A stretch of 27,589 bases of DNA from a virus. Its lineage: Duplodnaviria; Heunggongvirae; Uroviricota; Caudoviricetes. How positions within the stretch are numbered: position 1 is the first letter of the stretch; every line of letters begins with the position of its first letter. Below the pieces are notes generated by a model, which did no database searches, was not told where the DNA came from, and saw only the letters and a program-made list of their open reading frames with translations. Below, in pieces: positions 193-21,340 of the stretch. The stretch lies in the IMG/VR virus record IMGVR_UViG_2563366982_000007. One strand, written 5' to 3'. The position numbers were made by a program, and so were the translations under genes.

Positions 193-723
193 TCAGCCAA
201 CAAATTTAGCAACAAATACAGCAACCGCCGCCGTGAAAATGGTTGTGCATACTGGCACAATAATGCCACTCCAACGCCACTTCGTATTATCATCAACCTT
301 GTCAAACCGCCGATTCATCTCATCCATAATCTTGTCAAAGCGTTTATCCATCGCTTCGGTAAGCTCACCCTTCAGGCTGTTAATGTCTGATTTGAGCTGC
401 TCTTTCAGGTGAGCTGTATCAGATTTAAGCTCACCTTTCAGATTCGCAATATCGCATTTAAGATCACCTTTCAGATGAGCAATGTCTGCTTTGAGCTCAC
501 CTTTCACCTCACCAACATCGGCTTTGGTTGAGAGGTTTGTAGTGCGTTCAGCAAGCGTCGCAAGGTCGTTTCTTGTTAGCGATAAATCACCTTCGAGCCG
601 CTCAATTCGCCTTTCAAGTTTATCTGACATTCCGCCTCCACTATCACCGCCTCCCCCATCGAAAGAATTGCCAATGTCCTCACGAATAAGGGTTATGCCA
701 TGCTCACTTTTAGCATATGCCAC
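193..723 (-). CDS. Coiled-coil repeat protein with glycine-rich N-terminus and C-terminal hydrophobic (tail-anchor-like) segment; function unknown
   Basis: 176-aa ORF. Contains about 5 tandem 11-residue repeats (consensus roughly L-K-G-E-L-K-x-D-I-A-x) and ends in a hydrophobic stretch, WSGIIVPVCTTIFTAAVAVFVAKFVG. Its start abuts the stop of the upstream orf137, suggesting translational coupling. Confidence 0.6.
   Translation of the reverse strand: MAYAKSEHGITLIREDIGNSFDGGGGDSGGGMSDKLERRIERLEGDLSLTRNDLATLAERTTNLSTKADVGEVKGELKADIAHLKGDLKCDIANLKGELKSDTAHLKEQLKSDINSLKGELTEAMDKRFDKIMDEMNRRFDKVDDNTKWRWSGIIVPVCTTIFTAAVAVFVAKFVG
354..518. repeat. About five tandem 33-bp repeats, in-frame coding repeats inside the 193..723 CDS
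   Basis: Repeated unit similar to TTTgAGCTCACCTTTCAGxTGAGCaATaTC at 33-bp period, seen directly. Corresponds to the 11-aa protein repeats. Confidence 0.6.
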
Positions 724-1137
724 TCAGATTCCCTCCCAAACTATATATCCTTTGTCTCTTGCCCAACAAACAACTGTGTGGGCTGTATATGTGGATGTGA
801 AGCCGCAATAAGAACATGACACTTCATACCGAGTATTGTAGATGTTAATGGGCTCGTTCTCCTTGTGTATGGGAGTGACATATTCCCAATCATTTGAATC
901 ATCATAATCATCAAGTTCAGGGTCTGTGCCGTGAACAACCGTATGTGGAATAAACAAATCTGGGCGCCCACACGAGAGACAAGAGGTTCTGGCTCCTCTA
1001 TCTTTGAGGAATTGAATAAATAATTTGGGCGAAATCTGTTGCAGAACCTGCAAATGCCCACGTTCATTATCATTAAGAGACCTGTCTGCATATGGAAAAT
1101 CATCAAATTTAAGAGGCTTCATATAAGGCATCTCCAA
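724..1137 (-). CDS. Hypothetical Cys-rich protein (possible zinc-ribbon), co-transcribed downstream of int
   Basis: 137-aa ORF with two Cys pairs, C-L-S-C-G and C-S-Y-C-G. Its start region overlaps the int stop (alternative starts at 1128 or 1122), and its stop abuts the next ORF. Confidence 0.5.
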   Translation of the reverse strand: MEMPYMKPLKFDDFPYADRSLNDNERGHLQVLQQISPKLFIQFLKDRGARTSCLSCGRPDLFIPHTVVHGTDPELDDYDDSNDWEYVTPIHKENEPINIYNTRYEVSCSYCGFTSTYTAHTVVCWARDKGYIVWEGI

Positions 1138-2101
1138 GGGGATTAAATCTCACCGCATCCTGCAGGTAATCCGGCGCAAGATGGGCATAAATCATCGTTG
1201 TCTGAATCTTTGCGTGCCCCAAAATTTTCTGGAGGGTCAGAATATTGCCGCCGTTCATCATGAAATGACTGGCGAAGGTGTGGCGCAGCGCATGAACAGC
1301 CTGGCCGTCAGGAACATCAGGTGCGACCGTTTTGATGACATCGCGAACCAATGAATAATCCAGCGTCGGAAACACCAGTTTCCCGCCCCGTTTTTTGATC
1401 TTTTCAAACAGGCTTTCAGAAATAGGAACGGTACGGTTTTTGCTGTTCTTCGTTTTTGAAAAAGTGATTCGACAATGAAGAACACGGCGCTGCTCCAGTG
1501 CCGCTACCTCGCCCCATCGCGCCCCGGTCGACAGAAGGATTTCGACAGCCAGCCGTTCATCGGGATTTTCAGCCAGTGCATCCAGCAACTGAACACATTC
1601 AGACTTACTCAGGTATCCCATTTCGCGCTCGTTAACCTTCATTCCTTTAAGGCCTTGAACGGGGTTATCGTTAAGAAAATGGCCGGATGAGATGAGTGCG
1701 GTAAACATCGCGCTTAACGCCCCAATCTCTCGATTTATGGTGCTGGGCTGTATCCCCTGCTCTATCCTGGACACACGTAGCTCGGTGAGCATCGTTGTAT
1801 TAAGTTTATGCACGCACGGGTCATCCATTGCTTCACTCAAGCGCAGCAATTTAAGGCGCGTGTTATGCCCTGACTTCATTAGCTGGCCGTGGTATTTCCA
1901 CCACAAGTCAATAAGCACTGACAGAGGACGGCGATCAATAGAGTTTCCTTTCCACTCATTGTTATGCTGTTGCGCCAGCACCCACCGCTCATATAAAACT
2001 GCATCCGATTTCGTTTTAAATTTTTTGCGAATGCGTTTGCCTTTACGCCCCTCAGGGCGCATGTCAAGAAGATACCCTCCCGGAATTGATTTTATGCTCA
2101 T
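1109..2101 (-). CDS. int: Tyrosine recombinase / phage integrase (P2 Int-like)
   Basis: Translation has the tyrosine-recombinase C-terminal motifs (ARWGE, HALRHTFASHFMMNGG, LQKILGH, MIYAH) and an N-terminus, MSIKSIPGGYLLDMRPEGRKGKRIRKKF, that closely resembles P2 Int as I recall it. Start is trimmed from the track ORF (2251) to the internal Met at 2101 to match P2 Int length and avoid overlapping C. Confidence 0.9.
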   Translation of the reverse strand: MSIKSIPGGYLLDMRPEGRKGKRIRKKFKTKSDAVLYERWVLAQQHNNEWKGNSIDRRPLSVLIDLWWKYHGQLMKSGHNTRLKLLRLSEAMDDPCVHKLNTTMLTELRVSRIEQGIQPSTINREIGALSAMFTALISSGHFLNDNPVQGLKGMKVNEREMGYLSKSECVQLLDALAENPDERLAVEILLSTGARWGEVAALEQRRVLHCRITFSKTKNSKNRTVPISESLFEKIKKRGGKLVFPTLDYSLVRDVIKTVAPDVPDGQAVHALRHTFASHFMMNGGNILTLQKILGHAKIQTTMIYAHLAPDYLQDAVRFNPLGDALYEAS

Positions 2102-2150
2102 TCGTGAAACCCCAGCGTTACAAGACCACCATGCCCCCAGCGTTCCATGA

Positions 2151-2459
2151 TTAGCCGGGCTGTGTACCAGTCTTGCGGGATTTTTGAGAAGACGATGTGT
2201 TTTCTGGCCCATCAGGGGAGAGAGAGGGACTGATCTGCCCAGCAGCCTCATTTGTTTTTCCCGTCATAAGCCAATTCATGTACTTAAAAAAGCGAGGGTG
2301 ATTAACAATCTTGATAAGCACTTCGCCCCCTATGTTTTCAATCCGCCCCGTTTCATAACGACGCAAAGTGCCGATAGGCACATCAATCAGGCCGCAAAAT
2401 TCTTCGCGCGTTAAATCCTCTGATTCACGAATCACTCTAATTTTTTCACCGATAAGCAT
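2151..2459 (-). CDS. C: Immunity repressor, P2 C-like
   Basis: About 102 aa from the internal Met. The core motif EKIRVIRESEDLTREEFCGLIDVPIGTLRRYETGR resembles the P2 C repressor HTH region from memory. Position between int and a divergent rightward early operon matches P2. Confidence 0.7.
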   Translation of the reverse strand: MLIGEKIRVIRESEDLTREEFCGLIDVPIGTLRRYETGRIENIGGEVLIKIVNHPRFFKYMNWLMTGKTNEAAGQISPSLSPDGPENTSSSQKSRKTGTQPG

Positions 2460-2555
2460 TGACAGTGTTCCTATAAGTACACTAAGCTTGCGCACAAGGT
2501 GTACTTATAAGTACACCAAGTCACAAACAACCACAGATAGCGCAGGTTATCACAC
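2460..2555. promoter_or_regulatory. Divergent C / early-operon control region with direct-repeat operator half-sites
   Basis: Two copies of TATAAGTACAC at about 2472-2482 and 2506-2516; the second is embedded in a 20-bp perfect palindrome GGTGTACTTATAAGTACACC (about 2498-2517). TTGACA at about 2459-2464. The 96-bp region lies between divergently transcribed C and the Cox-position gene. Confidence 0.5.
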
Positions 2556-2834
2556 ATGGCAAAAGTCCTGAACACACACGAACAGGCAGACTTTGAGCGT
2601 TTAGCAGCGTTCTATCCCTACCGCGATGAGCATGGGTTACCAGTACTTGAAGAAAGCCTGAAAGATTACGCAAAGCGTACCAACCAAGCTGTTAACACAG
2701 TGAAAAGACAGGCTGACAGAGGTTCAATTCCCATCAACCAAGATGAAAAGAACTCAAGACGCACAGTAAATCTCTTCGCTCTTTTCCTGAAAACAATCAG
2801 GAGCGCAGAAAAATACGTGCAGATGACAAAATAA
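2556..2834 (+). CDS. First gene of early operon, Cox/Apl-position small regulator (assignment by position only)
   Basis: 92-aa basic protein immediately right of the operator region, transcribed divergently from C. I do not see clear sequence similarity to P2 Cox, so the call is positional. Confidence 0.45.
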   Translation: MAKVLNTHEQADFERLAAFYPYRDEHGLPVLEESLKDYAKRTNQAVNTVKRQADRGSIPINQDEKNSRRTVNLFALFLKTIRSAEKYVQMTK

Positions 2835-2848
2835 CGAGGTGTCATTTT

Positions 2849-3187
2849 ATGCTGAAGCAACGCCGTAATTTTCGTACCGGAACAGAACGCCACGCTAACC
2901 GTTTCACTACCAGTGCATCACGCAGCAACATCCGCTACAGCCTGAGTGATACACACGCAACGCCGGATAGCTACCCAGTAAAACAAATCGGCGAGCACAC
3001 CTGGCTGATTGAGAAAGCTGGAATCGTGATCCACAAATGCCCACGCAATCCGTTTACCGGAAACCGCATTTTTGCATTGAGCTGTGGCGACAATCAGTTC
3101 GGGCAGGATTTCACATTATACGAAGCACTTCGCACGGTTGATCGTCTGCTTCGCGGGCAAAGTTTTATTAAACAGACTGATTTATAA
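2849..3187 (+). CDS. Hypothetical early protein
   Basis: 112-aa ORF in the early operon, tightly spaced after the previous gene. Confidence 0.45.
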   Translation: MLKQRRNFRTGTERHANRFTTSASRSNIRYSLSDTHATPDSYPVKQIGEHTWLIEKAGIVIHKCPRNPFTGNRIFALSCGDNQFGQDFTLYEALRTVDRLLRGQSFIKQTDL

Positions 3188-3197
3188 CAGGTGCTTT

Positions 3198-3485
3198 ATG
3201 ACCAAAGACCATGCACAAGGTGTATTTATCCGTTTTATTGATTTTCGCGGTGAACTGTTATTACGTGCATCCGCTATTGACGGAGTGACTCCGGCGGGTA
3301 AAAACGGAGCCGACGAAGCCACTTACGTTTATCTGAACGGCACGCGACTGCTTGTGGAACTTCCGTACCAGACCGTACGAGAAATCATTAGCGAAGCTGA
3401 AAAGGCACGCCAGGTTAATGGCGATGAACCCTATATCGAAATTATTTGTATGGATTCAGAAGCTGAAATACAGAAAGCAGATTAA
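3198..3485 (+). CDS. Hypothetical early protein
   Basis: 95-aa ORF from the internal ATG at 3198 (the track ORF 3084..3485 overlaps the upstream gene). Confidence 0.45.
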   Translation: MTKDHAQGVFIRFIDFRGELLLRASAIDGVTPAGKNGADEATYVYLNGTRLLVELPYQTVREIISEAEKARQVNGDEPYIEIICMDSEAEIQKAD

Positions 3486-3493
3486 AGGGCGTT

Positions 3494-3739
3494 GTGATGG
3501 GCAAAGAATATAAAACTCTCATTAACAAAGCACTTGAGTGTTTTTATTTTCGCTTAAGTGCATCAGGCGCTCATGCTGAACGTGCGGCCCGTGACTCATT
3601 GACCAGAGCAATCCGAAGTCTGTATGACGTGGCTTTTTACGCTGATGATCTGGATGCACTTAACGAACTTTCCGAGCTGATCTGTGCCGCAGAATGCGGG
3701 GAACATATTGAACCGTATAAGCTGGGAAATATCGCATGA
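3494..3739 (+). CDS. Hypothetical early protein
   Basis: 81-aa ORF in operon context. Confidence 0.4.
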   Translation: MMGKEYKTLINKALECFYFRLSASGAHAERAARDSLTRAIRSLYDVAFYADDLDALNELSELICAAECGEHIEPYKLGNIA

Positions 3740-3849
3740 GTATATTTATCTCATGGCTTGTTCTGATTATTTCGGTGGTCTGCGCCATTGGGATTATGCG
3801 AATTATTAATTCAGTAAAAAAGATTGAACGCTTTTTCACTGAAGAATAA
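3736..3849 (+). CDS. Possible small membrane protein (37 aa)
   Basis: ATG overlapping the previous stop (ATGA). Translation MSIFISWLVLIISVVCAIGIMRIINSVKKIERFFTEE has one hydrophobic helix. It is below the ORF-track length cutoff, so it was read by eye. Confidence 0.3.
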   Translation: MSIFISWLVLIISVVCAIGIMRIINSVKKIERFFTEE

Positions 3850-3935
3850 CCGCGCAAATAAGACCCCAGGTTAAATAAGAAAATGTGAAAACAATCCGCA
3901 TTCGCGGAGGTATTCGCACACGCCAAGGAGGCGTA

Positions 3936-4139
3936 ATGGCAATTAAGCATTTTCCTGTCGTTCGTTTCACCTCCAGAGGACGTGAATACGAAGTTGACGA
4001 ACGCCTGATTACCACAATCGACAAACACCGTTCAGAAAAGGATGCACATCACATCTATCTCACTGACGGCACTTACTTCTGCGCCACCAACGTGGTGCAG
4101 GTAAATCTTATCAGACAGGTACAGGAGTCACGCAGATGA
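3936..4139 (+). CDS. Hypothetical early protein
   Basis: 67 aa from the Met preceded by AAGGAGG (the track ORF begins at 3885). Confidence 0.4.
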   Translation: MAIKHFPVVRFTSRGREYEVDERLITTIDKHRSEKDAHHIYLTDGTYFCATNVVQVNLIRQVQESRR

Positions 4140-4894: not shown

Positions 4895-7660
4895 ATGACG
4901 GCAGAGTACATCAGGGACTGGCAACAACCGCGCCACGCAGTGGGGCGTGAAGGAACGGGGATCCCCGCTCCTGAATCCGCGCTTTCCTCCTGGCTGGATG
5001 CCTACCGGGTAGAGAACGAGCGCCGCCAGGAAATGGCTGATGCGGCGTTCTCCGCAACGCCGCTGGGCAACCTGATTAATAAAAGCCTGGACGCACAGGA
5101 AAAACAGGACAAAACCATCACACTGGCAGGAGATGCCAGAAAACAGGCACGCGGCGCGGTGGATGAAGCCATGGCCTCGCTGCGCCTGCTGCCGTCCTAT
5201 CTGCGCGATCCGCTTATTCGCCACCTCTCCTTCCTGCGCAAAAAACAGGAAGCCGATCGTCAGAAAGGCAAAAAGAGCTGGCAGGCTGAACGCTACGCGC
5301 GCGGAAACCTGCGCAAAATATTCGAACGTCTGGAGCGCACCGATCACCGCTGGCTGACACAGGGTTATCGCTCCCTTGCCGGACGCGAACGCCTGGACGA
5401 TTTGCTTTACCTGCCGCAGCTCAACAAACACCAGATACAGACACTGGCCACCATGACGGCGGCGATGTTCAGCAGCACCTTCGAAAAACTCTGCGATGGC
5501 TTTGGCGCGACCGATGGCGAACTGACCATGGATGTAACGCTGAAGGCGTATCAGATGCTGGCCCGCATGGCGTTACACCTGCACGCCATGCCTCCACATT
5601 ATGACGCACTGACAACAGACAAAGACCGGAGGAACGAACCGGACACGGAGCTGCTGCCGGGCGCAATCCTTCGCCTGACCTGTGCAGAATGGTGGAAACG
5701 CAAACTGTGGCTGTTACGTTGCGAGTGGAGAGAAGAACAACTCCGCGCCGCCTGTCTGGTTTCCAGAAAAACATCGCCCTATCTGAGCCAGGACGCGTTA
5801 AGCGAGTTTCGCGCACAGCGCGAGAAAACACGCGATTTCCTGAAAAGTTTCATGCTGGAAAATGAAGACGGGTTCACGATTGATCTCGAGACAGTGTATT
5901 ACGCGGGAGTAAGTAACCCGGTTCACCGTAAGGCAGAAATGATGGCCACCATGAAGGGGCTGGAACTTCTGGCCGAAGCCCGTGGTGACAAAGCGGTGTT
6001 TCTGACTGTCACCTGCCCGTCAAAATACCACGCAACAACGGAGAACGGTCATCCGAACCCCAAATGGAACGGGGCCACCATGCGCGACTCCAGCGATTAC
6101 CTGGTTAACACGTTTTTTGCGGCGGTCCGCAAAAAACTGAACCGCGACGGCCTGCGCTGGTATGGCATCCGCACGGTGGAGCCTCACCATGACGGCACCG
6201 TGCACTGGCATATGATGGTCTTTGCTCATCCGGAAGAAATCGACAGCATCGTGGCCATCACCCGCGATATTGCCATTCAGGAAGATCGTCACGAACTGGG
6301 CGATGATATTACTCCGCGCTTTAAGGCGGAGTATGTCGACGGCTCAAAAGGCACACCAACCAGCTATATCGCGACCTACATCGGAAAAAACCTGGACAGC
6401 CGCGCCGTAGATGGCATCGACCCGAAAACGGGCAAGCCACGCGTTGACCACGAAACCGAAAAATCAATGGCCGAGAGCGTGGAGCGCGCCATTGGCTGGG
6501 CGCGTCTTCATCGGGTCCGCCAGTTCCAGTTCTTTGGCATCCCCTCCCGTCAGGTATGGCGTGAACTCCGCCGCCTTGCCAGCCAGATGGCACGCAACCC
6601 GGAAGGCCCGCAACGGCTGAAGGATGATGCAATGGATGCGGTACTCGCTGCCGCTGATGCCGGGTGTTTTGCCTCCTACATTGAAAAACAGGGCGGCGTA
6701 CTTGTTCCACGTAAAGACTACCTGATTCGCACCGCCTACGACCTCGCAGATGAGCTGAACGATTACGGCGAGCAGAGTGTACAGATTTACGGGATCTGGT
6801 CGCCGCTCATCGGGGAGTCTTCCCGCGTGTGCACGCACCCGGATAACTGGAAGCTGGTAAGACGTAAACCGGAAGCGGAAGACAGCGCCCGCGAAAATGG
6901 TTTTGACCTTCAGGGCGGCCCTGCCGCCCCTTGGACTCGTGGCAATAACTGTCCCCGTGTACAGGAAACGGACAACAACGGGACAGAACAGCCGGAAGAA
7001 CGGCCAGCACCGTGGCCGCAGCTTCCTGACGGCGTTGATGTGGATGAATGGATGCGCTCACTGAAACGGCAAGAACGCCGGGCGCTGATGCGTTCGCTGC
7101 GTGACAAACAGGCAAAAAACAGCAGTGATGAAATGCAGAGCTGGACACAGAGCCGCAAACAGCAGCGGCCTTTGCCTGATAACCACGAATTACTCGCTAA
7201 AGAATGGCGGGAATCTGCTGAATCTCTCGGCCTGCATATCGGTGAACAGCAGATGCAGCACCTGTTACGGGGCGGCAGCCTGTACGTTGACGGCAGCATC
7301 ATTGCACCGCAGGGATTTGAAATTGTACGCAAACCGGATACCCGCCCGGACAGCCGAATCACGCAGCTCTGGCAGCGCCTGAGCCGTAATCACGGCGTAA
7401 GCAGCACGGAGATCCGCCATAACCCGGTCGCCAGCTATCTGGAACAGCTGGGGGCATCAGACCCCGAAGCCGCCGCACGCATGGTATCCACACTTCAGCA
7501 GGACCAGAACACCATGAAAACCCCCGTTACCGTGCTTTCTGACATGCTGCGCGTCATCCGTGACGCAGAGCACGCACAGAGAATCAATGAAACCACTGAA
7601 CGCGCACGTCACAAGGCGGGTCTGTTGCAGGACAAAGGCAATAGCGAGAAGAAAAAATAA
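4895..7660 (+). CDS. A: Rolling-circle replication initiator (P2 gpA-like HUH endonuclease) with long C-terminal extension
   Basis: HUH-type motif TVHWHMMVFAH and paired active-site tyrosines in SYIATYIGKN. Position after the early operon matches P2 gene A. At 921 aa it is longer than P2 A as I recall it (about 760 aa). Confidence 0.85.
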   Translation: MTAEYIRDWQQPRHAVGREGTGIPAPESALSSWLDAYRVENERRQEMADAAFSATPLGNLINKSLDAQEKQDKTITLAGDARKQARGAVDEAMASLRLLPSYLRDPLIRHLSFLRKKQEADRQKGKKSWQAERYARGNLRKIFERLERTDHRWLTQGYRSLAGRERLDDLLYLPQLNKHQIQTLATMTAAMFSSTFEKLCDGFGATDGELTMDVTLKAYQMLARMALHLHAMPPHYDALTTDKDRRNEPDTELLPGAILRLTCAEWWKRKLWLLRCEWREEQLRAACLVSRKTSPYLSQDALSEFRAQREKTRDFLKSFMLENEDGFTIDLETVYYAGVSNPVHRKAEMMATMKGLELLAEARGDKAVFLTVTCPSKYHATTENGHPNPKWNGATMRDSSDYLVNTFFAAVRKKLNRDGLRWYGIRTVEPHHDGTVHWHMMVFAHPEEIDSIVAITRDIAIQEDRHELGDDITPRFKAEYVDGSKGTPTSYIATYIGKNLDSRAVDGIDPKTGKPRVDHETEKSMAESVERAIGWARLHRVRQFQFFGIPSRQVWRELRRLASQMARNPEGPQRLKDDAMDAVLAAADAGCFASYIEKQGGVLVPRKDYLIRTAYDLADELNDYGEQSVQIYGIWSPLIGESSRVCTHPDNWKLVRRKPEAEDSARENGFDLQGGPAAPWTRGNNCPRVQETDNNGTEQPEERPAPWPQLPDGVDVDEWMRSLKRQERRALMRSLRDKQAKNSSDEMQSWTQSRKQQRPLPDNHELLAKEWRESAESLGLHIGEQQMQHLLRGGSLYVDGSIIAPQGFEIVRKPDTRPDSRITQLWQRLSRNHGVSSTEIRHNPVASYLEQLGASDPEAAARMVSTLQQDQNTMKTPVTVLSDMLRVIRDAEHAQRINETTERARHKAGLLQDKGNSEKKK

Positions 7661-7840
7661 CCAAGAAAGAAATCATCAATTGTATGAAGGTAGAGTTTAG
7701 ACATGGTAAGGACGTTCCATGGGGCACACTGTAATTTCATATAGTATTCCTCTTCCCTGTTTGATAAAAAAGTGCAATACTATAAATAGTCCAGTTAAAT
7801 GCTTTTTCAATTCACTTAAAATCAAGAGGTTACAGTTAAG
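7661..7840 (+). promoter_or_regulatory. AT-rich intergenic region upstream of the ATPase-peptidase operon; putative promoter
   Basis: 180 bp, markedly AT-rich. TTGATA at about 7761 and TATAAAT at about 7781 are sigma70-like, but the spacing is not ideal by my count. RBS AAGAGG lies about 10 nt before the 7841 ATG. Confidence 0.3.
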
Positions 7841-8962
7841 ATGGGCGACTTAGGTGGTATTCAGTCAGATTTAGCCCAACTAGTTAGACTGGTAATAACT
7901 GAACAGTATGATGACGTTCGGTTATATGTCGCTCGCTTGGTGCGTAAATATCGGGAAACTATGCCTGCTCTATCCGAGCAGCTTGATCTTTATCTACGAA
8001 ATAAACCGCAAAAGCCTGCACAAAGCCTGCGTAAGGTTACCGCACCAAAACAAGCGCTGCCTCAAACCATGCCTGTGGACGAGGAGTCAAGGCTTACCTT
8101 GCTTAAAGCACCAAATGAAAAGATTGTGAGCAAACCTCTACTGTCCAGTCAGATAGAAGACTCACTGGATCAAATTATTCTTGAGCGGAAGCACATCGAT
8201 CGCCTCAAGACTCTCGGCTTACAACCAACACGCTCTGCCATTTTTGTTGGCCCTCCGGGTGTAGGTAAAACACTTACGGCAAGCTGGTTAGCTCAGAAAT
8301 TAGGGGTTCCTTTTTACGTTCTTGATTTAACGGCAGTAATGAGCAGCTATCTGGGCAAAAGCGGAAATAACCTTCGGGCAGCTCTAGATTTTGCGAAGAA
8401 AGGGCCGTGCGTTCTTCTGTTAGATGAAATTGATTCAATCGCCAAAAAGAGAAGTGATGATTCTGATGTTGGAGAATTAAAAAGACTTGTTACCGTGATA
8501 CTCCAGGAGGTTGACGAATGGCCGTCTTCTAGTTTGCTACTTGCTGCAACTAACTTCGCTGAGTTGATTGATCCAGCACTATGGAGACGTTTTGATTTAG
8601 TGCTCAATTTTGAGAAGCCAGATAGCGAAAGTATTAAAGAAGCAATTAAACGCTTTTCGGGTCCCGACTACGCGATTTTTGCACGTTGGATAGATCTACT
8701 GGCTATTATGTTCAAAAATGAATCTTTTAGTAATATTGAGCGTTCTATCAACAAATTCCGACGTTCGGTCGCTTTAGGTATTTCCTCAGATGAAGAGTTG
8801 ATTGGGTCGTTCATTAAAGATGGTTTATCAGAATTAGACAGGAATGAACGTAAAGAAATTGCAGTTACTCTAAAAAGAAATTCTAAATTATCCCAGCATG
8901 CCATATCAGACTTAACCGGAGTCAGTAGGGATACAATTAGAAAATACAGTCAAAAAATGTAA
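7841..8962 (+). CDS. Classic AAA+ ATPase with C-terminal helix-turn-helix; candidate defense ATPase
   Basis: Walker A GPPGVGKT (about aa 137-144), Walker B LLLDEID (about aa 192-198), sensor-1-like AATN, arginine-finger-like WRRFD. C-terminal LSQHAISDLTGVSRDTIRKYS resembles an HTH. AT-rich codon usage unlike the flanking phage genes. Confidence 0.85.
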   Translation: MGDLGGIQSDLAQLVRLVITEQYDDVRLYVARLVRKYRETMPALSEQLDLYLRNKPQKPAQSLRKVTAPKQALPQTMPVDEESRLTLLKAPNEKIVSKPLLSSQIEDSLDQIILERKHIDRLKTLGLQPTRSAIFVGPPGVGKTLTASWLAQKLGVPFYVLDLTAVMSSYLGKSGNNLRAALDFAKKGPCVLLLDEIDSIAKKRSDDSDVGELKRLVTVILQEVDEWPSSSLLLAATNFAELIDPALWRRFDLVLNFEKPDSESIKEAIKRFSGPDYAIFARWIDLLAIMFKNESFSNIERSINKFRRSVALGISSDEELIGSFIKDGLSELDRNERKEIAVTLKRNSKLSQHAISDLTGVSRDTIRKYSQKM

Positions 8963-8985
8963 TACAGCATAGATAAGGAGTATGT

Positions 8986-11211
8986 ATGGCGAAAACTAAT
9001 TTTCTGATTGGACGCGGCGAATTATTAACCAGCGATATTCCTGGTCCTAAAAGAGTGCCCGGAAAAGCTGAGGTTTATTCTCTTTACGAATCGAAACAAC
9101 GTTTATTGCCGCAAATTGCATCTACTATAGAAAATTTTGATGATTTACCCAGTCAGGCATGTCCTTATGATTATGCTGTGGCTAAGTTGACGTTGAATCC
9201 AAGCTATATTGCACGCTCTTTTTTTCCTGCAAAAATGCTTAAGTCTACCGGGTTAACGTCTATTGGCAGCAGGACGGTAAAAATTACGCCTCAAAGCTGG
9301 AAGCGAAAAGTTACTGTGTCAGAAGTAACTACGACACAAATGTTTGTTGCTGGTAAAAGAGAATCCTTCAAAGAGTTACCTCATTGGGTGTCAGAACTCA
9401 AAGAGTTTTCTGACGAAGCGATTGATTTTGCACGCATAGAACGGTTCGATGCCTATTTACCCGAAGAGCGTATTATTACCATTGGTGAGCAGGATTCTTC
9501 GTATTTTGAGGTTGGTGTTCATTTACTGCCAGATAATGAACAAGACTTGGTTCAGCAACAATTTGTTCAGTTTGCATCAAATTTGAACATCAAAGTACAT
9601 ACTTCATTAGCTTTTACCGCTGGTACATTATGGTTCGTGCCAATCCAGGCCGATAGAATTACTATTAGTAAGCTTGCGAAATTTACATTTGTACGAGTAA
9701 TAAGACCGGTTCCAAGATTGCGTGGGATTAGACCAATACAAAGGAACTACGGTCCTTTAGCTCAGTGTAAATTACCTGCTGAGGGCCCCGTATCTTCAGA
9801 AATAAAAGTTGCGATTCTTGATGGTGGTTTACCATCAGAGCACGCTATATCGCCATGGTTAAAATCCTATAGAGTTTTGGACGATCATGCAGAGGATGAT
9901 CCAGACGGTTTAGAGCATGGTTTAGCTGTGTCTTCAGCCTTTTTATTTGGACCAATAAGTAATAAATCGGAAGCGAAAAGACCATACTCTTATATTGATA
10001 ACTTAAGAGTTTTGGACAACAAGACCTGCCAAGAAGATCCGCTGGAACTATATCGAACTTTGGGCTTTATTGAAGAGGTATTGTTGTCTCGCCAGTATCA
10101 GTTTATCAATCTAAGTTTAGGTCCAGACCTACCAATTGAAGATACGGAAGTTCATGCATGGACTTCCGTTATTGATGATTTGTTAAGTGATGGTGAAACA
10201 TTAATGACTGTTGCTGTTGGCAACAATGGAGAAATGGATCGCAAGTCTGGTAATGCAAGAATTCAAGTACCAGCCGATTGCGTTAATGCTCTTGCTGTTG
10301 GTGCTTGTGATACAGTTAATGATACGGAATGGAAACGAGCACCATATAGCGCCATTGGGCCAGGCAGAAGTCCTGGCGTGATGAAACCGGATTTAGTTGC
10401 GTTTGGTGGTGACACAGACGAGTACTTTCATGTTTTAGGTAAAGGTAAGAAGCCTGTAATCATACCCCAGCTAGGAACAAGCTTTGCCTCTCCTTACGCC
10501 TTACGAGCAGCTGTTGGTGTTCGGGCAATTTTAGGGAACGATTTGAGCCTACTAGCAATCAAAGCTTTGTTAATTCATGCGTCAAAACAGCTTGATCATC
10601 CTTGTACAGAAGTTGGCTGGGGAAAACTGCCTGAAGACTTGAACGACATTATAGTCAGCCCTGATGGTGTTGCCCGTATCGTCTACCAAGGTGAATTGAA
10701 ACCAGGAAAATACTTACGCGCTTCTCTTCCAATACCTGAAGGTGGCTTGAAAGGTAGAATAAACTTAGCGGCAACTTTCTGTTATGCAACAACCACTGAT
10801 CCACAAGACCCAGCTTCCTATACAAAAGCTGGTTTGGAAGTGACATTCCGGCCAAATGATTCAAAAATCAAAGACGGAAAACAAAATGCTGAAACCAAGG
10901 GATTCTTTGAACTGGCCAAATATTCAACTGAAAGTGAGCGACGTTCTGACATGGGCAAATGGGAGACCGTCTTACATAATTCGAAGAACATGCTAGGTTC
11001 AACTCTAAAAAATCCTGTATTTGACATTCATTATAACGCTCGTGAGGCCGGTGCAAGCATAGCCAGCCATAAGGCAGAAAAAATCAAGTATGCTCTTATA
11101 ATTACCATTAAGGCATCAAAGCACCAAGACCTGTATAACGAAATTTTACGTACTTATAATCAGGTGCTCGTGCCAATTCAACCGCAAACATCAATTCCTA
11201 TTCGTTCGTAA
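8986..11211 (+). CDS. S8 family (subtilisin-like) serine peptidase, cytoplasmic, with N- and C-terminal accessory domains; candidate defense effector or sensor
   Basis: Catalytic triad in canonical S8 order and context: Asp in VAILDGG (about aa 279), His in EHGLAVS (about aa 311), oxyanion Asn in VGNNG (about aa 413), Ser in GTSFASPY (about aa 499). No N-terminal signal peptide. About 270 aa precede and about 230 aa follow the protease core. Starts 23 bp after the ATPase stop with RBS AAGGAG. Confidence 0.85.
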   Translation: MAKTNFLIGRGELLTSDIPGPKRVPGKAEVYSLYESKQRLLPQIASTIENFDDLPSQACPYDYAVAKLTLNPSYIARSFFPAKMLKSTGLTSIGSRTVKITPQSWKRKVTVSEVTTTQMFVAGKRESFKELPHWVSELKEFSDEAIDFARIERFDAYLPEERIITIGEQDSSYFEVGVHLLPDNEQDLVQQQFVQFASNLNIKVHTSLAFTAGTLWFVPIQADRITISKLAKFTFVRVIRPVPRLRGIRPIQRNYGPLAQCKLPAEGPVSSEIKVAILDGGLPSEHAISPWLKSYRVLDDHAEDDPDGLEHGLAVSSAFLFGPISNKSEAKRPYSYIDNLRVLDNKTCQEDPLELYRTLGFIEEVLLSRQYQFINLSLGPDLPIEDTEVHAWTSVIDDLLSDGETLMTVAVGNNGEMDRKSGNARIQVPADCVNALAVGACDTVNDTEWKRAPYSAIGPGRSPGVMKPDLVAFGGDTDEYFHVLGKGKKPVIIPQLGTSFASPYALRAAVGVRAILGNDLSLLAIKALLIHASKQLDHPCTEVGWGKLPEDLNDIIVSPDGVARIVYQGELKPGKYLRASLPIPEGGLKGRINLAATFCYATTTDPQDPASYTKAGLEVTFRPNDSKIKDGKQNAETKGFFELAKYSTESERRSDMGKWETVLHNSKNMLGSTLKNPVFDIHYNAREAGASIASHKAEKIKYALIITIKASKHQDLYNEILRTYNQVLVPIQPQTSIPIRS

Positions 11212-11224
11212 TCCTTCAAGACAT

Positions 11225-11256
11225 AATGCCCCTCAATTTGAGGGGCATTTCTTTGC
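11225..11256 (+). terminator. Rho-independent terminator after the peptidase gene
   Basis: Perfect 10-bp stem AATGCCCCTC / GAGGGGCATT with loop AATTT, followed by a T-rich run; begins 14 nt after the stop codon. Confidence 0.6.
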
Positions 11257-11608
11257 ACAAAAGTGCACAAATTTGCACAATTTTTTTGAACGACTTTTTG
11301 CCCTTCCGGCCCGCATGGCGGCTGGATCCGTCAAGGATCCGTGCGTGCACAAAAAACGCGTTTTTCCTGCGCGCAGGTGACGGGGGAACAGCCCGCGTTT
11401 CAGGGGGTAAACAGCATTCCCTGAACGATGTCGCAGAGACACAACAGAATGGCCATATTTCTCACGCTGAGCATGAAAAAGGCGTGAGGGCTTTTGATTT
11501 GATGGGGTGAAAGGTAAGGCCGTCAAAATCGCACTGAGGCAGCGAGAACATACAGTCAACGCGGTGGAATTGCGTAAGTGAAGTGGTCAACAAAAACTGG
11601 CCACCGAG

Positions 11609-12756
<1,148 letters not shown>

Positions 12757-13031
12757 TATGGCACCTGTGTTGTTCTGAGGTGAGCATATCACCTCTGTTC
12801 AGGTGGCCAAATTCAGTAAACCACTTCAAAGAGTCTGACCGTCGATGGTGGCGATAAACTGGAAGGCGTCGTGAAATTATCTGATTGATACAGGAGCTGG
12901 AGAGCCGGGGCATAAATTTTTTATGCCCCGGCGAAGCAGCAGACAAGCGAAGCGCGTCAGCGATACGGCACCTTGCCGACCATACTTCATAAGTGCAAAA
13001 TACGAGCAAAGAAATCAATGGAGGCTGTCTT

Positions 13032-13556
13032 ATGGTCATTAATTACAAGCAGTTAAGAGAAAAACGGGAGCAGGTAAAGGAGAGCTTTCGCCGCAATGAA
13101 GATCTGACCCCGCTTGTACGCCTTGCCCAGGGCATTGTTGATGCTTATGAAATCTCGCTGGAGCTGCCATCACAGACCTGGACAGATAGCGACGGTAATC
13201 GCCAGCATTACGTTTCATGCGGACTGGAAGCAGCCGAAGGATTTCGCAGAATGCCTTTATCCCAGATCCCTGCCGCTACCCCCAAAGCACGGGGCAGCAA
13301 TGATGAGCGAAAACTGACTTTTAGTATTGAAACGGTGGTTGACGACACACCTGGCGAAGTCGCGTTCGTGCACACGCCTGTTTCGATCGCAATGTATAAC
13401 GATGAAATACAGGTTCGCGTTAATAATAATATCGTGCCACTTAAAGAAGGTAATTCACCCTACACCACCGTTTGTGAAGCCATTCAATATTACGTTCTCT
13501 CTGAAATTGATAATCTCAAGCCTGACGGCACCCAGAAAATGGTTCAACTCTGGTAA
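13032..13556 (+). CDS. Hypothetical protein (about 174 aa), orphan gene between the IS and portal gene Q, convergent with Q
   Basis: ORF with RBS GGAGG before the ATG at 13032 (the track ORF starts at 12993). No recognisable motifs. Ends at a shared bidirectional terminator. Confidence 0.5.
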   Translation: MVINYKQLREKREQVKESFRRNEDLTPLVRLAQGIVDAYEISLELPSQTWTDSDGNRQHYVSCGLEAAEGFRRMPLSQIPAATPKARGSNDERKLTFSIETVVDDTPGEVAFVHTPVSIAMYNDEIQVRVNNNIVPLKEGNSPYTTVCEAIQYYVLSEIDNLKPDGTQKMVQLW

Positions 13557-13588
13557 AAAGGACAGCCCCATCACGGGGCTGTTTTTTC
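13555..13588. terminator. Bidirectional intrinsic terminator between the orphan gene and Q
   Basis: Stem ACAGCCCC / GGGGCTGT with loop ATCAC, flanked by an A-run on one side and a T6 run on the other. Overlaps the Q stop codon. Confidence 0.6.
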
Positions 13589-14617
13589 ATCAAGAAGAGC
13601 ATAAGAGTTAAAACGGATCACCTCTTCGCCAAGCCAGTCATTGATGTGCTTCATAGCCTCCATGACGGGCATCAGCTCGTTAATTGCGTAAACCCGCGCT
13701 GCCTTCTCCACATCGCCAAACGCACTTTTTTCGCCCGGCATCGCCCCCATCAGTTGCGGCGGAACGCGGTGCGCAGCCAGCACATCATCACGGGATGCCG
13801 CCTTAACATTCATGAATTCATCTTTTGCGGTGATCTGCTGGAACGGCAAAATTTGCACCCCCTCTTTGCCCCCGTTGGGCGCATGAATGAGCACGTTTTT
13901 AAACGCACCACCACCACGTGCCCCCTGTAGCGTTTCTTTCAGGGAGTCCATGCTTTCGCGGTTTACCTGCGCTGCACCGATGTAGATAATGCACCCGGCG
14001 TGGGATCCGTTGTCGTAGTACAGTTTTCTGAACATGTCCGCCGAATGAGAAAGGCTGGCCGAGAGTAATGCGCCAAGATATTCCGGCATGCCGTAGATTT
14101 CCTGGTTAATATCCGGATTCATCAGGTGGCACACTTTGCCAGGACGAAACTGAAACGCGTCCTTGCCATCCTGCACATACCACCATGATTCAAGATCGCT
14201 TCCGCGTCGCATGTATTTCGCCAGGGCGTGCCGTAATTTAAGCGGTTCGCCGAGCATATTGCTTCGAAGCTCAAGGAATGCGTTACCGAACACAAACCAG
14301 TCCAGCGCCAGCGCCGAGAAATCCTGCCGGGAAAGCAGCGGGTGCGGGATGTAGCAACCGAGTAATACATTGCGCTTAAAGTAAAGCGCAGACTGATGCC
14401 AGGACGTTTGCCGGGCTGCTCTTGCCAGACCGTACCAGTCCACCGGGGTTTCATACCACCGCCCGTTATCAGCACAGTACATATTGTCCAGCAGGTCATG
14501 CCCGGTCAGGCGATAAGGACCATCAAATGTGAATGCACTGAGCGATGATTCTTTCCTGAGCGCATCAGCGAGATCAATGCGTGAACTCATGCGCACTTTT
14601 TTATTTTTTCTGCTCAT
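13571..14617 (-). CDS. Q: Portal protein (P2 gpQ-like)
   Basis: 348 aa (P2 Q is about 344 aa). Lies immediately downstream of, and overlapping by 1 nt, the large terminase gene on the minus strand, as in P2. Confidence 0.85.
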   Translation of the reverse strand: MSRKNKKVRMSSRIDLADALRKESSLSAFTFDGPYRLTGHDLLDNMYCADNGRWYETPVDWYGLARAARQTSWHQSALYFKRNVLLGCYIPHPLLSRQDFSALALDWFVFGNAFLELRSNMLGEPLKLRHALAKYMRRGSDLESWWYVQDGKDAFQFRPGKVCHLMNPDINQEIYGMPEYLGALLSASLSHSADMFRKLYYDNGSHAGCIIYIGAAQVNRESMDSLKETLQGARGGGAFKNVLIHAPNGGKEGVQILPFQQITAKDEFMNVKAASRDDVLAAHRVPPQLMGAMPGEKSAFGDVEKAARVYAINELMPVMEAMKHINDWLGEEVIRFNSYALLDEKTAP

Positions 14618-16368
14618 CAGAACTCCATAACCGTGAAACGCTCGTTTTCTCCTTCGCCGCCAATTGGTTCGTTAATGACAGCAAGCATGGTTGCCCACGC
14701 AAGGTCGCCGTGGCTGATCCCCCTCGCGCGGTCCGTTTCGTAAGTGATAAAGCCGCCCGGTGTTTTCACCTTACGCACGGCGTTAAAGGCTGCGACCAGC
14801 TCGCGTTCGGCGCGATCGTATTCCCACCGCCCGGCACGCATTATTTGCAGCATTTTCAGTACCAGCGACCGTTTTGATGACAGCGTGAAGGTGTACGGAA
14901 TAGCAGCAGGGAAAAACCGTTTCACTATCTGATAAACAGCCTCCCCGTTCCCGCCTGTCACATCAATGCCGATGTGTTCCACGTTGTAGCGACACGTGAA
15001 CTCTTCAATGACTCTGGCCTGTTCTTCAAACTCCAGCCCCTGAACGCGTCGCGTCTCCACCGTTCGAAAACGGCCGCCAGGAACAGCCGGAGGAACCACC
15101 ACGGACACAGCGCCGCTGTCGCCGTTTCCACTGCTGCCGTTTGCGTCATACCCAATCCATACCGGACGATTCCCCATCGGGCGGGGAGCAAAAGGTTTCC
15201 AGTCTTTCCAGTCGTCGTATCCGTCAACACCGCAGCCAATCAGGATATTCAGGTTAAATGCCGATTCCCCTTCGCGGACAAACTCACACATATAGAGATT
15301 GAGGAACTCGTCTTCGGTGTTTTCATCACGAATTTCGTCGATATCGGTGTGTTTCCAGCCGTGATTAACCACATCTTCCAGCGTGACAATTTGCCGCCAC
15401 GTCCGGTCAGGGCAGATAAGCCCGTTATGCAGCGTTTTCCAGTCCACAGAAAAACGCTGGCGTTTATGCGAGGCCTTTTTCTCGTTCCAGCGGTCGCCGT
15501 TCCAGTAGGCGTATGCCTCGTGCGTTTCGGTGGATGGCGTGGAGAAGTAGGTGCGCCGCAATCCGCTGAGGGTTGCCATAGCGCCAGCCACCTTGCGCAG
15601 TTCAGCAAAGCGACTGACCCAGAAAAATTCATCAAAATAAAAATTGCCCGTATAGGACTGCGCCGACGCAGCAGAAGTGCCGAGAAAATGCAGCTCTGCG
15701 CCGTTGGAGAGGATGATTTTATCGCCCCCTTTCAGCTCCACATCAACTTCAGCCGCAGCCTTCTGAATAATGCTTTTAAACTGGAACGCCTGACGACGCG
15801 ACGCAGACAAAAAAATCTGGTTACGCTGGTAAGGTTGCGCCACATCGTCACGCAGCGCCATCAGCAGTGCTTCCTGTGCAAAATACCAGGTCGCGCCAAT
15901 CTGTCGGGATTTCAGGATCATCCTGTTACGTATCCCGGCTTCCCTGCAAAGGGTCAGGGAGTCAAACCAGCCCCGCTGATGCCACTCCAGCCTGCTGATG
16001 ATTTTTTCCCGCAGTGCGGCAATCTGTTCCGGCGTGAAATGATTTTTGAGTTTTTTCGCCCGGCCTTTCTTTCCTGTGGCCGTCGCATCCGGCTGGCCAT
16101 CATGCATTTTTTTAAGCTGCCGGGTCAGCAGGTCTATTTCCTTAAAGTCACCGCCTGTTTTATTCTGTTTTTCAGTAAGCTGGATGAGGCGCGCATCGAT
16201 GGACTGCGTGACACGCTGCACGGGTGGCGTTTCATCCCACTGGTCGCGTTTTTTCCACGCATAAATCGTGTTCGGGTTTATTCCCATCAGACGTGATATT
16301 TCTGCGGGCGGATAACCCTGCCAGTAAAGTTGCCGCGCACGCTGGCGCACAAAAGCGTCCTGAATCAT
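14617..16368 (-). CDS. P: Terminase large (ATPase) subunit (P2 gpP-like)
   Basis: 583 aa, with an ATPase region and a nuclease region. Position and orientation, divergent from O-N-M-L, are exactly as in P2. Confidence 0.88.
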   Translation of the reverse strand: MIQDAFVRQRARQLYWQGYPPAEISRLMGINPNTIYAWKKRDQWDETPPVQRVTQSIDARLIQLTEKQNKTGGDFKEIDLLTRQLKKMHDGQPDATATGKKGRAKKLKNHFTPEQIAALREKIISRLEWHQRGWFDSLTLCREAGIRNRMILKSRQIGATWYFAQEALLMALRDDVAQPYQRNQIFLSASRRQAFQFKSIIQKAAAEVDVELKGGDKIILSNGAELHFLGTSAASAQSYTGNFYFDEFFWVSRFAELRKVAGAMATLSGLRRTYFSTPSTETHEAYAYWNGDRWNEKKASHKRQRFSVDWKTLHNGLICPDRTWRQIVTLEDVVNHGWKHTDIDEIRDENTEDEFLNLYMCEFVREGESAFNLNILIGCGVDGYDDWKDWKPFAPRPMGNRPVWIGYDANGSSGNGDSGAVSVVVPPAVPGGRFRTVETRRVQGLEFEEQARVIEEFTCRYNVEHIGIDVTGGNGEAVYQIVKRFFPAAIPYTFTLSSKRSLVLKMLQIMRAGRWEYDRAERELVAAFNAVRKVKTPGGFITYETDRARGISHGDLAWATMLAVINEPIGGEGENERFTVMEF

Positions 16369-21198: not shown

Positions 21199-21340
21199 CC
21201 CACCCACATGGGGAAACCTCGGAATATGGGGCGACCGCCTTCTGGATGCACTGGAAACCTGTAACGCGGATAAACGGGCCATTGCTGAACTGGATAAGAG
21301 AATAGCCGAACTGACACACCAGACGGGAGTAACACAATGA
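21059..21340 (+). CDS. o-spanin (Rz1-like lipoprotein), overlapping the 3' end of Rz in another frame
   Basis: Lipoprotein signal with lipobox LLTGC and a proline-rich mature region (PVTPPPFPDPPTW). Overlaps Rz, as in P2 lysB/lysC. Confidence 0.6.
   Translation: MNAPTLCLTLVLLTGCAGTQNAPGPAPSVRLIPQTLTMPVTPPPFPDPPTWGNLGIWGDRLLDALETCNADKRAIAELDKRIAELTHQTGVTQ

What the first reader, a model, noticed from the sequence alone, without database searches (positions are those of the whole stretch)
8986..11211. Large cytoplasmic subtilase with non-protease N-terminal (~270 aa) and C-terminal (~230 aa) domains
S8 peptidases are usually secreted with a propeptide. This one starts MAKTNFLIGRGELL with no signal peptide and has the catalytic Asp only at about residue 279. 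The N-terminal region is not obviously an I9 propeptide, and the C-terminal region (about aa 530-741) is also unassigned. A domain-decorated intracellular protease in a defense hotspot is consistent with a phage-triggered effector or a caspase-like activator.
Basis: partly seen in the sequence, partly recalled or inferred. Interest (0 to 1): 0.65.

Follow-up and report, generated by a model that had tools for sequence, protein, structure and literature searches.

The report
IetS protease of IetAS defence
The large signal-less subtilisin-type protease is real, but it is the already catalogued IetS protease of the two-gene IetA/IetS toxin-antitoxin and anti-phage system, carried with its partner ATPase as cargo in the known defence hotspot of a P2-like prophage of E. 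coli.

The parts
4895..7660 (+). P2-type replication protein gpA; left border of the defence hotspot
   Evidence: Pfam Phage_GPA E 3e-131. PHROG 'nicking at origin of replication'.
7661..11247 (.). Cargo island carrying ietA-ietS. GC is 40-44% against 53-59% in the flanking prophage.
   Evidence: Composition profile. Homology to other P2-like phages resumes at about 11248.
7740..7790 (+). Candidate promoter (TTGATA-18-AATAGT, 7761-7790) overlapping a 15-nt inverted repeat (7740-7754 / 7770-7784). Possible operator for the IetA helix-turn-helix.
   Evidence: Only 6 of 500 composition-matched simulations reach the repeat. Function is inferred, not shown.
7841..8962 (+). ietA: AAA+ ATPase, 373 aa. 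Walker A G137-T144, pore-loop-1 Y170-L171-G172, Walker B D195/E196, sensor-1 N238, Arg fingers R249/R250, weak C-terminal HTH at aa ~340-373.
   Evidence: PADLOC IetA E 1e-77, full length. Pfam AAA E 2.6e-30, HTH_11/HTH_23 weak and below cutoff. Nearest solved proteins are Cdc48/p97/VAT/Rpt. Motif conservation in 9 IetA sequences.
8986..11211 (+). ietS: S8 peptidase, 741 aa (the finding).
   Evidence: PADLOC IetS E 1e-51 over aa 36-726. PHROG phrog_3964 E 4e-255. AF2 model pLDDT 87.2, pTM 0.90.
8986..9453 (+). IetS aa 1-156: conserved N-terminal segment, long helix (33-52) and first beta-alpha-beta-beta-alpha-beta module.
   Evidence: Secondary structure of the models. Invariant N5, G11, L14, K27, Y31, P72, G94, S95, G123, E152. 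Residues 1-20 are confident only in the full-length model.
9502..9708 (+). IetS aa 173-241: I9-prodomain-like ferredoxin fold.
9709..9807 (+). IetS aa 242-274: linker between prodomain-like module and catalytic domain. Arg/Pro-rich, with invariant R246 and nearly invariant P243, P250, R253, P264.
   Evidence: pLDDT 68-72. Conservation. A role as autoinhibitory or processing segment is inferred.
9808..10623 (+). IetS aa 275-546: subtilisin catalytic domain. D279 (9820-9822), H311 (9916-9918), N413 (10222-10224), S499 (10480-10482).
10624..11208 (+). IetS aa 547-741: C-terminal beta-sandwich (strands 562-710) plus a helix at 716-723.
11263..11288 (+). Terminator-like hairpin followed by a T-run, 52 bp after the ietS stop.
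   Evidence: This is a consensus match only.
11579..12828 (-). IS3-family insertion sequence (ISEc52-like). Not part of the system and does not interrupt it.
   Evidence: Pfam rve and HTH_Tnp_1. Terminal inverted repeats. Absent at this site in strain M1/5.
13571..14617 (-). P2-type portal protein gpQ; right border of the hotspot.
   Evidence: PHROG portal protein E 4.8e-153.

Best explanation
The ORF is IetS, the serine-protease toxin/effector of a two-gene IetA-IetS module. The module is carried as accessory cargo in the gpA-gpQ hotspot of a P2-like E. coli prophage.

Shown here:
- Both genes match the IetA/IetS profiles over full length.
- The catalytic triad and the ATPase motifs are intact.
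- The gene pair is conserved in diverse bacteria and mobile elements.
- The protein has no export signal.

From the literature on homologues:
- IetS alone is toxic.
- IetA neutralises it.
- Defence needs the protease active site.
- Defence is abortive and can be set off by a single phage protein.

Inferred by me: IetS is made as a cytoplasmic zymogen. An I9-like prodomain (aa ~173-241), followed by an Arg/Pro-rich linker, covers the substrate cleft as in unprocessed pro-subtilisin. A hexameric, Cdc48/Rpt-like IetA uses ATP to keep IetS inactive, by holding, remodelling or unfolding it. IetA may also repress the operon through its C-terminal HTH. When an infecting phage disables, titrates or outruns IetA, IetS activates itself and cleaves essential host or phage proteins. 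That stops growth before the competing phage completes its cycle and so protects the lysogen population. The same module would also stabilise the prophage by addiction.
For: - PADLOC: IetS E 1e-51 over aa 36-726, and IetA E 1e-77 over full length.
- NCBIfam: the best hits are IteS_antiphage and IteA_antiphage.
- The 99.8%-identical locus in UMNK88 is listed as ietAS by PADLOC in the supplementary table of Wu et al..
- The triad and oxyanion residue are invariant in 90 homologues.
- IetA's Walker A, Walker B, sensor-1 and Arg fingers are invariant in 9 homologues, and its pore-loop Gly plus a hydrophobic residue are conserved.
- IetA is closest to Cdc48/p97/VAT and proteasomal Rpt unfoldases.
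- An AAA gene lies directly upstream of the S8 gene in every homologue context examined: phage phiT5282H and Pf phage PfAC08, the Acidovorax plasmid, and three chromosomal contigs, of which records name one Nitrosomonas and one Pseudomonas.
- The location between gpA and gpQ is the P2 hotspot of Rousset et al. 2022 (PMC9122126).
- Literature: TA behaviour in pTiC58, SGI1 and Mycoplasma. The protease site is required for defence, and an ietA mutant could not be constructed (PMC13069673). A B. cereus homologue shows an abortive phenotype triggered by SPbeta yosG (bioRxiv 10.1101/2022.08.27.505566).
Against: - No experiment on this clade was found. It is only 28% identical to an NCBIfam-annotated IteS (aa 226-667) and 22% to the common E. 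coli type. It is not significantly similar by BLASTP to the founding pTiC58 IetS.
- It scores far below the NCBIfam equivalog cut-offs: 135 against 900 bits for IetS, and 223 against 510 for IetA.
- The prodomain assignment rests on a predicted model. The ferredoxin-like fold is generic: ribosomal protein S6 scores as well as the prodomains.
- I could not inspect coordinates, so the claim that the linker occupies the active-site cleft is untested.
- How IetA restrains IetS, what triggers release and what is cleaved are all unknown. The literature says the same.
Confidence: 0.8

Rival explanations
1. It is an ordinary secreted subtilase with a propeptide (a nutritional or virulence protease) that happens to lie in a prophage.
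For: The fold-level I9-like prodomain and C-terminal beta-sandwich resemble secreted subtilases such as Pro-Tk-SP and KP-43.
Against: There is no hydrophobic N-terminal segment. The first 20 residues are conserved and are modelled as part of the fold. The gene is always paired with a cytoplasmic AAA+ gene. It matches the IetS profiles over full length.
Confidence: 0.02
2. The pair is mainly an addiction (post-segregational killing) module that stabilises the prophage, as IetAS does for pTiC58 and SgiAT does for SGI1. Any anti-phage effect is incidental or absent for this clade.
For: IetAS was discovered as a plasmid-stability TA system, and homologues stabilise SGI1. This clade is carried on many kinds of mobile elements. 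No defence assay for this clade was found.
Against: It occupies the P2 locus that is enriched for anti-phage systems. Three other IetAS subtypes give phage defence. The two roles do not exclude each other.
Confidence: 0.12
3. IetA is the activator rather than the restrainer. On sensing a phage cue, the unfoldase pulls the inhibitory prodomain off IetS through its conserved N-terminus and so switches the protease on.
For: IetA is a classic-clade unfoldase with a pore loop. The IetS N-terminus is strongly conserved. The prodomain-like module appears docked on the catalytic domain.
Against: In three homologous systems the protease alone is toxic and the ATPase neutralises it. A mutated ietA could not be cloned. 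An obligatory activator would give the opposite result.
Confidence: 0.06

Closest known systems
IetAS / 'Gao_Iet' anti-phage system (Gao et al. 2020; PADLOC IetA/IetS; NCBIfam IteA/IteS NF042959/NF042956)
   Same: Two co-oriented genes: a ~370-aa AAA+ ATPase with a C-terminal HTH, then a ~740-750-aa S8 peptidase with the same N-terminal / catalytic / C-terminal layout. Full-length profile matches.
   Different: Only 28% (IetS, aa 226-667) and 36% (IetA) identical to an NCBIfam-annotated IteS/IteA pair, and well below the equivalog cut-offs. This clade has its own PHROG families, phrog_3964 and phrog_3757, labelled 'unknown function'.
IetA/IetS toxin-antitoxin of Agrobacterium plasmid pTiC58, SgiAT of Salmonella SGI1, TA132/133 of Mycoplasma mycoides
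   Same: An AAA+ antitoxin upstream of an S8 protease toxin on a mobile element. IetA is 35% identical over the AAA module, E 1e-41.
   Different: pTiC58 IetA is short (328 aa) and lacks the C-terminal HTH. pTiC58 IetS is 836 aa and about 21% identical over the catalytic part only, which is not significant by pairwise BLASTP. The described role is replicon stability, not phage defence.
ietHAS / common E. coli ietAS (e.g. E24377A)
   Same: An AAA+ gene plus an S8 gene. The catalytic and C-terminal domains align at 22% identity, E 2e-11.
   Different: That type has an upstream SNF2 helicase, and in E24377A a neighbouring methyltransferase plus DEAD/DEAH helicase pair that resembles type III RM. 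It has a short IetA and a 795-aa IetS with an N-terminus that does not align. The window's pair has no helicase partner.
Unprocessed pro-subtilases (pro-subtilisin E 3whi, ProN-Tk-SP 3afg, EpiP 3t41, KP-43 1wmd)
   Different: Those are exported enzymes with signal peptides. IetS has none, carries an additional ~150-aa N-terminal module, has no Pfam I9 match, and is partnered with an AAA+ protein.

Membership tests
IetAS (AAA+ ATPase / S8 protease TA-defence system) | Two adjacent co-oriented genes, with the AAA+ ATPase upstream of the S8 peptidase | tested here: met
   ietA 7841-8962 and ietS 8986-11211, same strand, 23-bp gap. The same arrangement occurs in every homologue context examined.
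IetAS (AAA+ ATPase / S8 protease TA-defence system) | Full-length match of both proteins to the family profiles used by defence-annotation tools | tested here: met
   PADLOC IetS PDLC02197 E 1e-51 (aa 36-726 against profile positions 38-733 of 749). IetA PDLC02196 E 1e-77. A 99.8%-identical locus is called ietAS by PADLOC in a published table.
IetAS (AAA+ ATPase / S8 protease TA-defence system) | Reaches the NCBIfam equivalog cut-offs for IteS/IteA, i.e. same subfamily as the model's seed sequences | tested here: not met
   135 bits against a cut-off of 900 (IteS), and 223 against 510 (IteA). It is a divergent clade, not the equivalog.
IetAS (AAA+ ATPase / S8 protease TA-defence system) | Intact Asp/His/Ser triad in IetS and intact Walker A/B in IetA | tested here: met
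   D279, H311, S499 and N413 are invariant. K143, D195/E196, N238 and R249/R250 are invariant.
IetAS (AAA+ ATPase / S8 protease TA-defence system) | IetS is toxic alone and is neutralised by IetA | not testable with these tools
   Known only for homologues: pTiC58, SGI1, Mycoplasma and ietHAS.
IetAS (AAA+ ATPase / S8 protease TA-defence system) | Protects against phage in a protease-dependent way | not testable with these tools
   Reported for other subtypes. The primers for the tested ECOR52 system do not match this window.
Secreted subtilase with I9 propeptide | N-terminal signal peptide | tested here: not met
   Hydropathy only: the maximum 10-residue Kyte-Doolittle mean in the first 50 aa is 0.92. 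SignalP was not available.
Secreted subtilase with I9 propeptide | Inhibitor_I9 propeptide recognisable by sequence | tested here: not met
   No Pfam hit outside Peptidase_S8, even at E<=10 on the isolated N-terminal piece. The N-domain profile finds nothing in the PDB.
Secreted subtilase with I9 propeptide | Prodomain fold (beta-alpha-beta-beta-alpha-beta) packed on the catalytic domain | tested here: inconclusive
P2-like prophage defence-hotspot cargo (Rousset et al. 2022) | Located between replication gene A and portal gene Q, next to cos | tested here: met
   gpA 4895-7660 and gpQ 13571-14617. The definition is in PMC9122126. The Peduoviridae phage phiT5282H carries a 38%-identical pair at the same locus.

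The most novel reading that the evidence does not exclude
IetS is a cytoplasmic pro-subtilase. An I9-like prodomain and Arg/Pro-rich linker keep it latent. The Cdc48-like unfoldase IetA controls that latch through the invariant N-terminal segment of IetS. This would give the first mechanistic model for IetAS, a widespread system whose mode of action is still described as unknown in 2026.
Probability: 0.3. Interest if true: 0.55.

Novelty: already known. Interest (0 to 1): 0.25.

Why it matters
As a discovery it adds little. The gene pair is recognised by current defence-annotation profiles, and a near-identical copy is already tabulated as ietAS.

It has some value as a pointer. IetAS is common: over 2000 homologues of this clade's IetS were found, and this pair is in 44 of 5426 complete E. 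coli genomes. It occurs on phages, plasmids and islands. Its protease targets, its trigger and the way an AAA+ unfoldase restrains a subtilase are still unknown.

The predicted pro-subtilase-like architecture gives concrete, cheap experiments: processing-site mapping, prodomain deletion, and IetA pore-loop mutants.

Tried and rejected
- **Sequence-level assignment of the flanking regions.** Pfam at E<=10 on aa 1-268 and aa 547-741 found nothing. A 22-sequence N-domain profile against all PDB sequences gave a best E of 1.5, an RRM. No IetS or IetA structure turned up in PDB sequence searches with either protein.
- **N-terminal domain in other architectures.** phmmer of aa 1-268 against 1.84 billion representatives gave 560 hits. 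Among the 150 best hits listed, the long ones are all 725-771 aa with the domain at residues ~1-270; shorter ones look like contig fragments. The listed hits give no sign that the domain is reused elsewhere.
- **Identity with an experimentally tested system.** The ECOR52 ietAS primers from Wu et al. do not match the window or any fetched locus. The E24377A ietAS is a different, helicase-linked subtype. Yamamoto et al. 2009 is not held in the library.
- **Published mechanism.** None was found in the paper searches.
- **Other defence genes in the window.** PADLOC on 9 other ORFs gave only coiled-coil noise.
- **Phage maturation protease.** Considered briefly and dropped. The prophage has its own GPO-type scaffold gene, and the pair also occurs outside phages.

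Full report
**1. The observation**

The ORF at 8986-11211 (+) exists as described. It is 741 aa, starts with ATG and begins MAKTNFLIGRGELL. An AAGGAG ribosome-binding site lies 5 nt upstream.

Pfam detects only Peptidase_S8, aa 271-546. The isolated N-terminal (1-268) and C-terminal (547-741) pieces match no Pfam family even at E<=10.

Alignment to subtilisin E/BPN' places the catalytic Asp in ILD279GG, His in EH311G, the oxyanion Asn in GN413NG and Ser in GTS499FASP. All four are invariant in a 90-sequence alignment of homologues filtered to under 80% pairwise identity.

The first 50 residues contain no hydrophobic core; the maximum 10-residue Kyte-Doolittle mean is 0.92. The only hydrophobic 19-mer is the buried helix that follows the catalytic Ser. 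SignalP and TMHMM were not available, so "no signal peptide" rests on hydropathy. It is also supported by the first 20 residues being conserved (M1, N5, G11, L14) and modelled as part of the fold.

**2. What it is**

The protein is not an orphan. A 373-aa AAA+ ATPase gene (7841-8962) lies 23 bp upstream on the same strand.

- PADLOC profiles: the ATPase matches IetA (E 1e-77, full length). The peptidase matches seven IetS profiles, the best at E 1e-51 covering aa 36-726 of 741.
- NCBIfam's best hits are "anti-phage ATPase IteA" and "S8 family anti-phage peptidase IteS". Both are far below the equivalog cut-offs: 223 against 510 bits, and 135 against 900 bits.
- PHROGs has full-length families for both, phrog_3757 and phrog_3964 (E 4e-133 and 4e-255), labelled "unknown function". 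So the pair recurs in phage genomes.

The DNA of the pair is 100% identical to E. coli M1/5. It is at least 99.6% identical in 43 of 5426 complete E. coli genomes, always chromosomal, and a 44th genome carries an 85%-identical variant. One of the 43 is UMNK88, NC_017641.1 1028717-1032087. Exactly those coordinates are listed as "ietAS" (PADLOC) in the supplementary table of Wu et al., bioRxiv 10.1101/2022.08.21.504612. The locus is therefore already catalogued.

**3. Context**

The window is a P2-like prophage. Its genes in order:

| Coordinates | Strand | Gene |
|---|---|---|
| 1109-2251 | - | integrase |
| 2151-2495 | - | HTH repressor |
| 4895-7660 | + | replication protein gpA |
| 7841-11211 | + | ietAS |
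| 11579-12828 | - | IS3-family element |
| 12993-13556 | + | conserved phage ORF (phrog_5091) |
| 13571-14617 | - | portal gpQ |
| 14617-16368 | - | large terminase gpP |
| from 16490 | + | capsid, lysis and tail genes |

The gpA-gpQ interval is the P2 defence hotspot defined by Rousset et al. 2022 (PMC9122126). The cargo (7661 to about 11247) has 40-44% GC against 53-59% in the flanks. Similarity to other P2-like phages resumes at about 11248.

A sequenced Peduoviridae phage, Enterobacter phage phiT5282H, carries a 38%-identical AAA+/S8 pair at the same gpA-portal position.

Homologues at 65-77% identity include records named by their sources as Serratia, Photorhabdus, Morganella, Pantoea, Nitrosomonas, Burkholderia, Stenotrophomonas and others. 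In every homologue context examined, a 360-376-aa AAA gene lies immediately upstream. The surroundings vary: integrase-linked islands, a TraI-type element, a Pf filamentous phage and plasmids. The unit of inheritance is the two-gene module.

**4. Relation to the tested systems**

This clade is distant from every experimentally studied IetAS that I could fetch.

| Comparator | IetS | IetA |
|---|---|---|
| NCBIfam-annotated IteS/IteA pair (Acidovorax plasmid) | 28% identical over aa 226-667 | 36% |
| Common E. coli type (E24377A) | 22% over the catalytic and C-terminal domains | not compared |
| Founding pTiC58 pair | no significant BLASTP similarity | 35%, E 1e-41 |

The E24377A pair has an SNF2 helicase upstream and a methyltransferase plus DEAD/DEAH helicase pair downstream, so it is the "ietHAS" type.

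An alignment of nine IetA proteins separates two forms. The long form (360-387 aa) has a C-terminal helix-turn-helix and includes this clade, phiT5282H, Pf phage and the Acidovorax type. The short form (326-328 aa; pTiC58 and E24377A) lacks it.

The primers used to clone the tested ECOR52 system do not match this window. I found no experiment on this clade.

**5. The flanking domains**

An AlphaFold2 model built on the 90-sequence alignment is confident: mean pLDDT 87.2, pTM 0.90.

*N-terminal region.* Its elements in order:

- a short conserved N-terminal segment;
- a long helix (33-52);
- a first beta-alpha-beta-beta-alpha-beta module (about 63-156);
- a second module of the same topology (173-241);
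- a less confident Arg/Pro-rich linker (242-274, pLDDT 68-72) that contains invariant R246.

R237 and R240 on the preceding strand are also invariant.

*Distribution.* The N-terminal 268 residues have 560 representative homologues. Among the 150 best hits listed, every long protein is 725-771 aa with the domain at the N-terminus, so there is no sign that it is shared with other effector types.

Residues 1-20 are confident in the full-length model (pLDDT 78-92) but not in the isolated N-domain model (39-45). This suggests they pack on the catalytic or C-terminal domain.

**6. The partner**

IetA carries the following motifs:

- Walker A, G137-T144;
- a pore-loop-1-like Y170-L171-G172;
- Walker B, D195/E196;
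- sensor-1, N238;
- Arg fingers, R249/R250.

All except the aromatic position are invariant in nine homologues.

Its nearest solved relatives are Cdc48/p97/VAT and proteasomal Rpt subunits, which are substrate-threading unfoldases.

A weak HTH (Pfam HTH_11/HTH_23, below cut-off) occupies aa ~340-373. One homologue carries an unflagged precomputed HTH_23 hit.

A 15-nt inverted repeat (7740-7754 / 7770-7784) overlaps a promoter-like site upstream of ietA. Only 6 of 500 composition-matched simulations reach it. Other ietA upstream regions also contain palindromes of unrelated sequence, but these were not tested against chance. Autoregulation is a reasonable but unproven inference.

**7. How it most likely works**

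From the literature on homologues:

- IetS is a toxin and IetA its antitoxin in pTiC58, SGI1 and Mycoplasma.
- The protease site is required for defence, and a mutated ietA could not be cloned (PMC13069673).
- A B. cereus IetAS shows an abortive-infection phenotype and becomes toxic when the SPbeta protein YosG is expressed.
- The anti-phage mechanism is explicitly described as unknown.

Combined with the anatomy above, the best-supported model has three steps. IetS is a cytoplasmic zymogen-like protease. ATP-dependent action of IetA keeps it inactive. Infection that disables or titrates IetA frees the protease, which self-activates and cleaves essential proteins, aborting the infection. The same module also acts as an addiction cassette for the prophage. 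The zymogen/latch step and the manner of restraint are my inference.

Rivals:

- Ordinary secreted subtilase: rejected, because there is no signal peptide and the gene is always paired with an AAA+ gene.
- Purely an addiction module: possible and not exclusive.
- IetA as activator: contradicted by the toxin/antitoxin genetics of homologues.

**8. Novelty and verdict**

The general idea, an intracellular protease effector in a defence hotspot, is right.

The object is a known system, and a near-identical copy is already annotated as ietAS. The "not I9" statement holds only at sequence level. I rate it "already known" with low interest.

The residual value is that IetAS has no published mechanism, and the predicted pro-subtilase architecture suggests direct experiments.

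Noticed in passing
window 11579-12828: A 1250-bp IS3-family element (ISEc52-like) with 27-nt terminal inverted repeats and a 3-bp target duplication is inserted 367 bp downstream of ietS. Strain M1/5 has an identical copy at the left prophage end instead. There, the window's 530-3964 (integrase, repressor and other early genes) is missing.
   Followed up: partly
window 21337-23217 (+): A 626-aa ORF with DUF1737, a SASA sialate-O-acetylesterase domain and DUF6645 sits between the lysis and tail genes. The DUF1737 + SASA pair recalls the NanS-p esterases of Stx prophages (from memory, not tested). It is intact here and annotated as frameshifted in M1/5.
   Followed up: partly
window 7740-7790: A 15-nt inverted repeat overlaps a sigma-70-like promoter upstream of ietA; 6 of 500 simulations reach it. 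It is a possible operator for the C-terminal HTH of IetA. Other ietA upstream regions (L006, L007, L008, L010, L012, L013) also have palindromes, with unrelated sequences.
   Followed up: partly
window 7841-8962, aa ~340-373; alignment A3: IetA proteins fall into a long form with a C-terminal helix-turn-helix (this clade, phiT5282H, Pf phage, the Acidovorax type) and a short form without it (pTiC58, E24377A). The two forms go with different IetS lengths: about 730-750 aa with the long form and 795-836 aa with the short form.
   Followed up: partly
window 8986-9045 (IetS aa 1-20): The extreme N-terminus is strongly conserved (M1, N5, G11, L14). It is modelled confidently only in the full-length protein (pLDDT 78-92 against 39-45 in the isolated N-domain), which suggests it contacts the catalytic or C-terminal domain.
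   Followed up: no
L009 (E. coli E24377A, NC_009801.1 3330029-3340792): The commoner E. coli ietAS is flanked by an SNF2 helicase upstream and a methyltransferase plus DEAD/DEAH helicase pair (type III RM-like) downstream. This fits the reported ietHAS variant and the RM III-ietAS co-localisation.
   Followed up: partly
L008 (Pseudomonas phage PfAC08, OR818368.1): The GenBank notes swap the labels: the ATPase is noted as IetS and the S8 peptidase as IetA. NCBIfam spells the family IteA/IteS rather than IetA/IetS.
   Followed up: no
window 193-723 (-): A 176-aa coiled-coil protein (CCDC90-like / DUF1640) lies at the left edge next to the integrase. It is truncated by the IS in M1/5. Its weak PADLOC hits (ZorA, LmuB) look like coiled-coil noise.
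   Followed up: no
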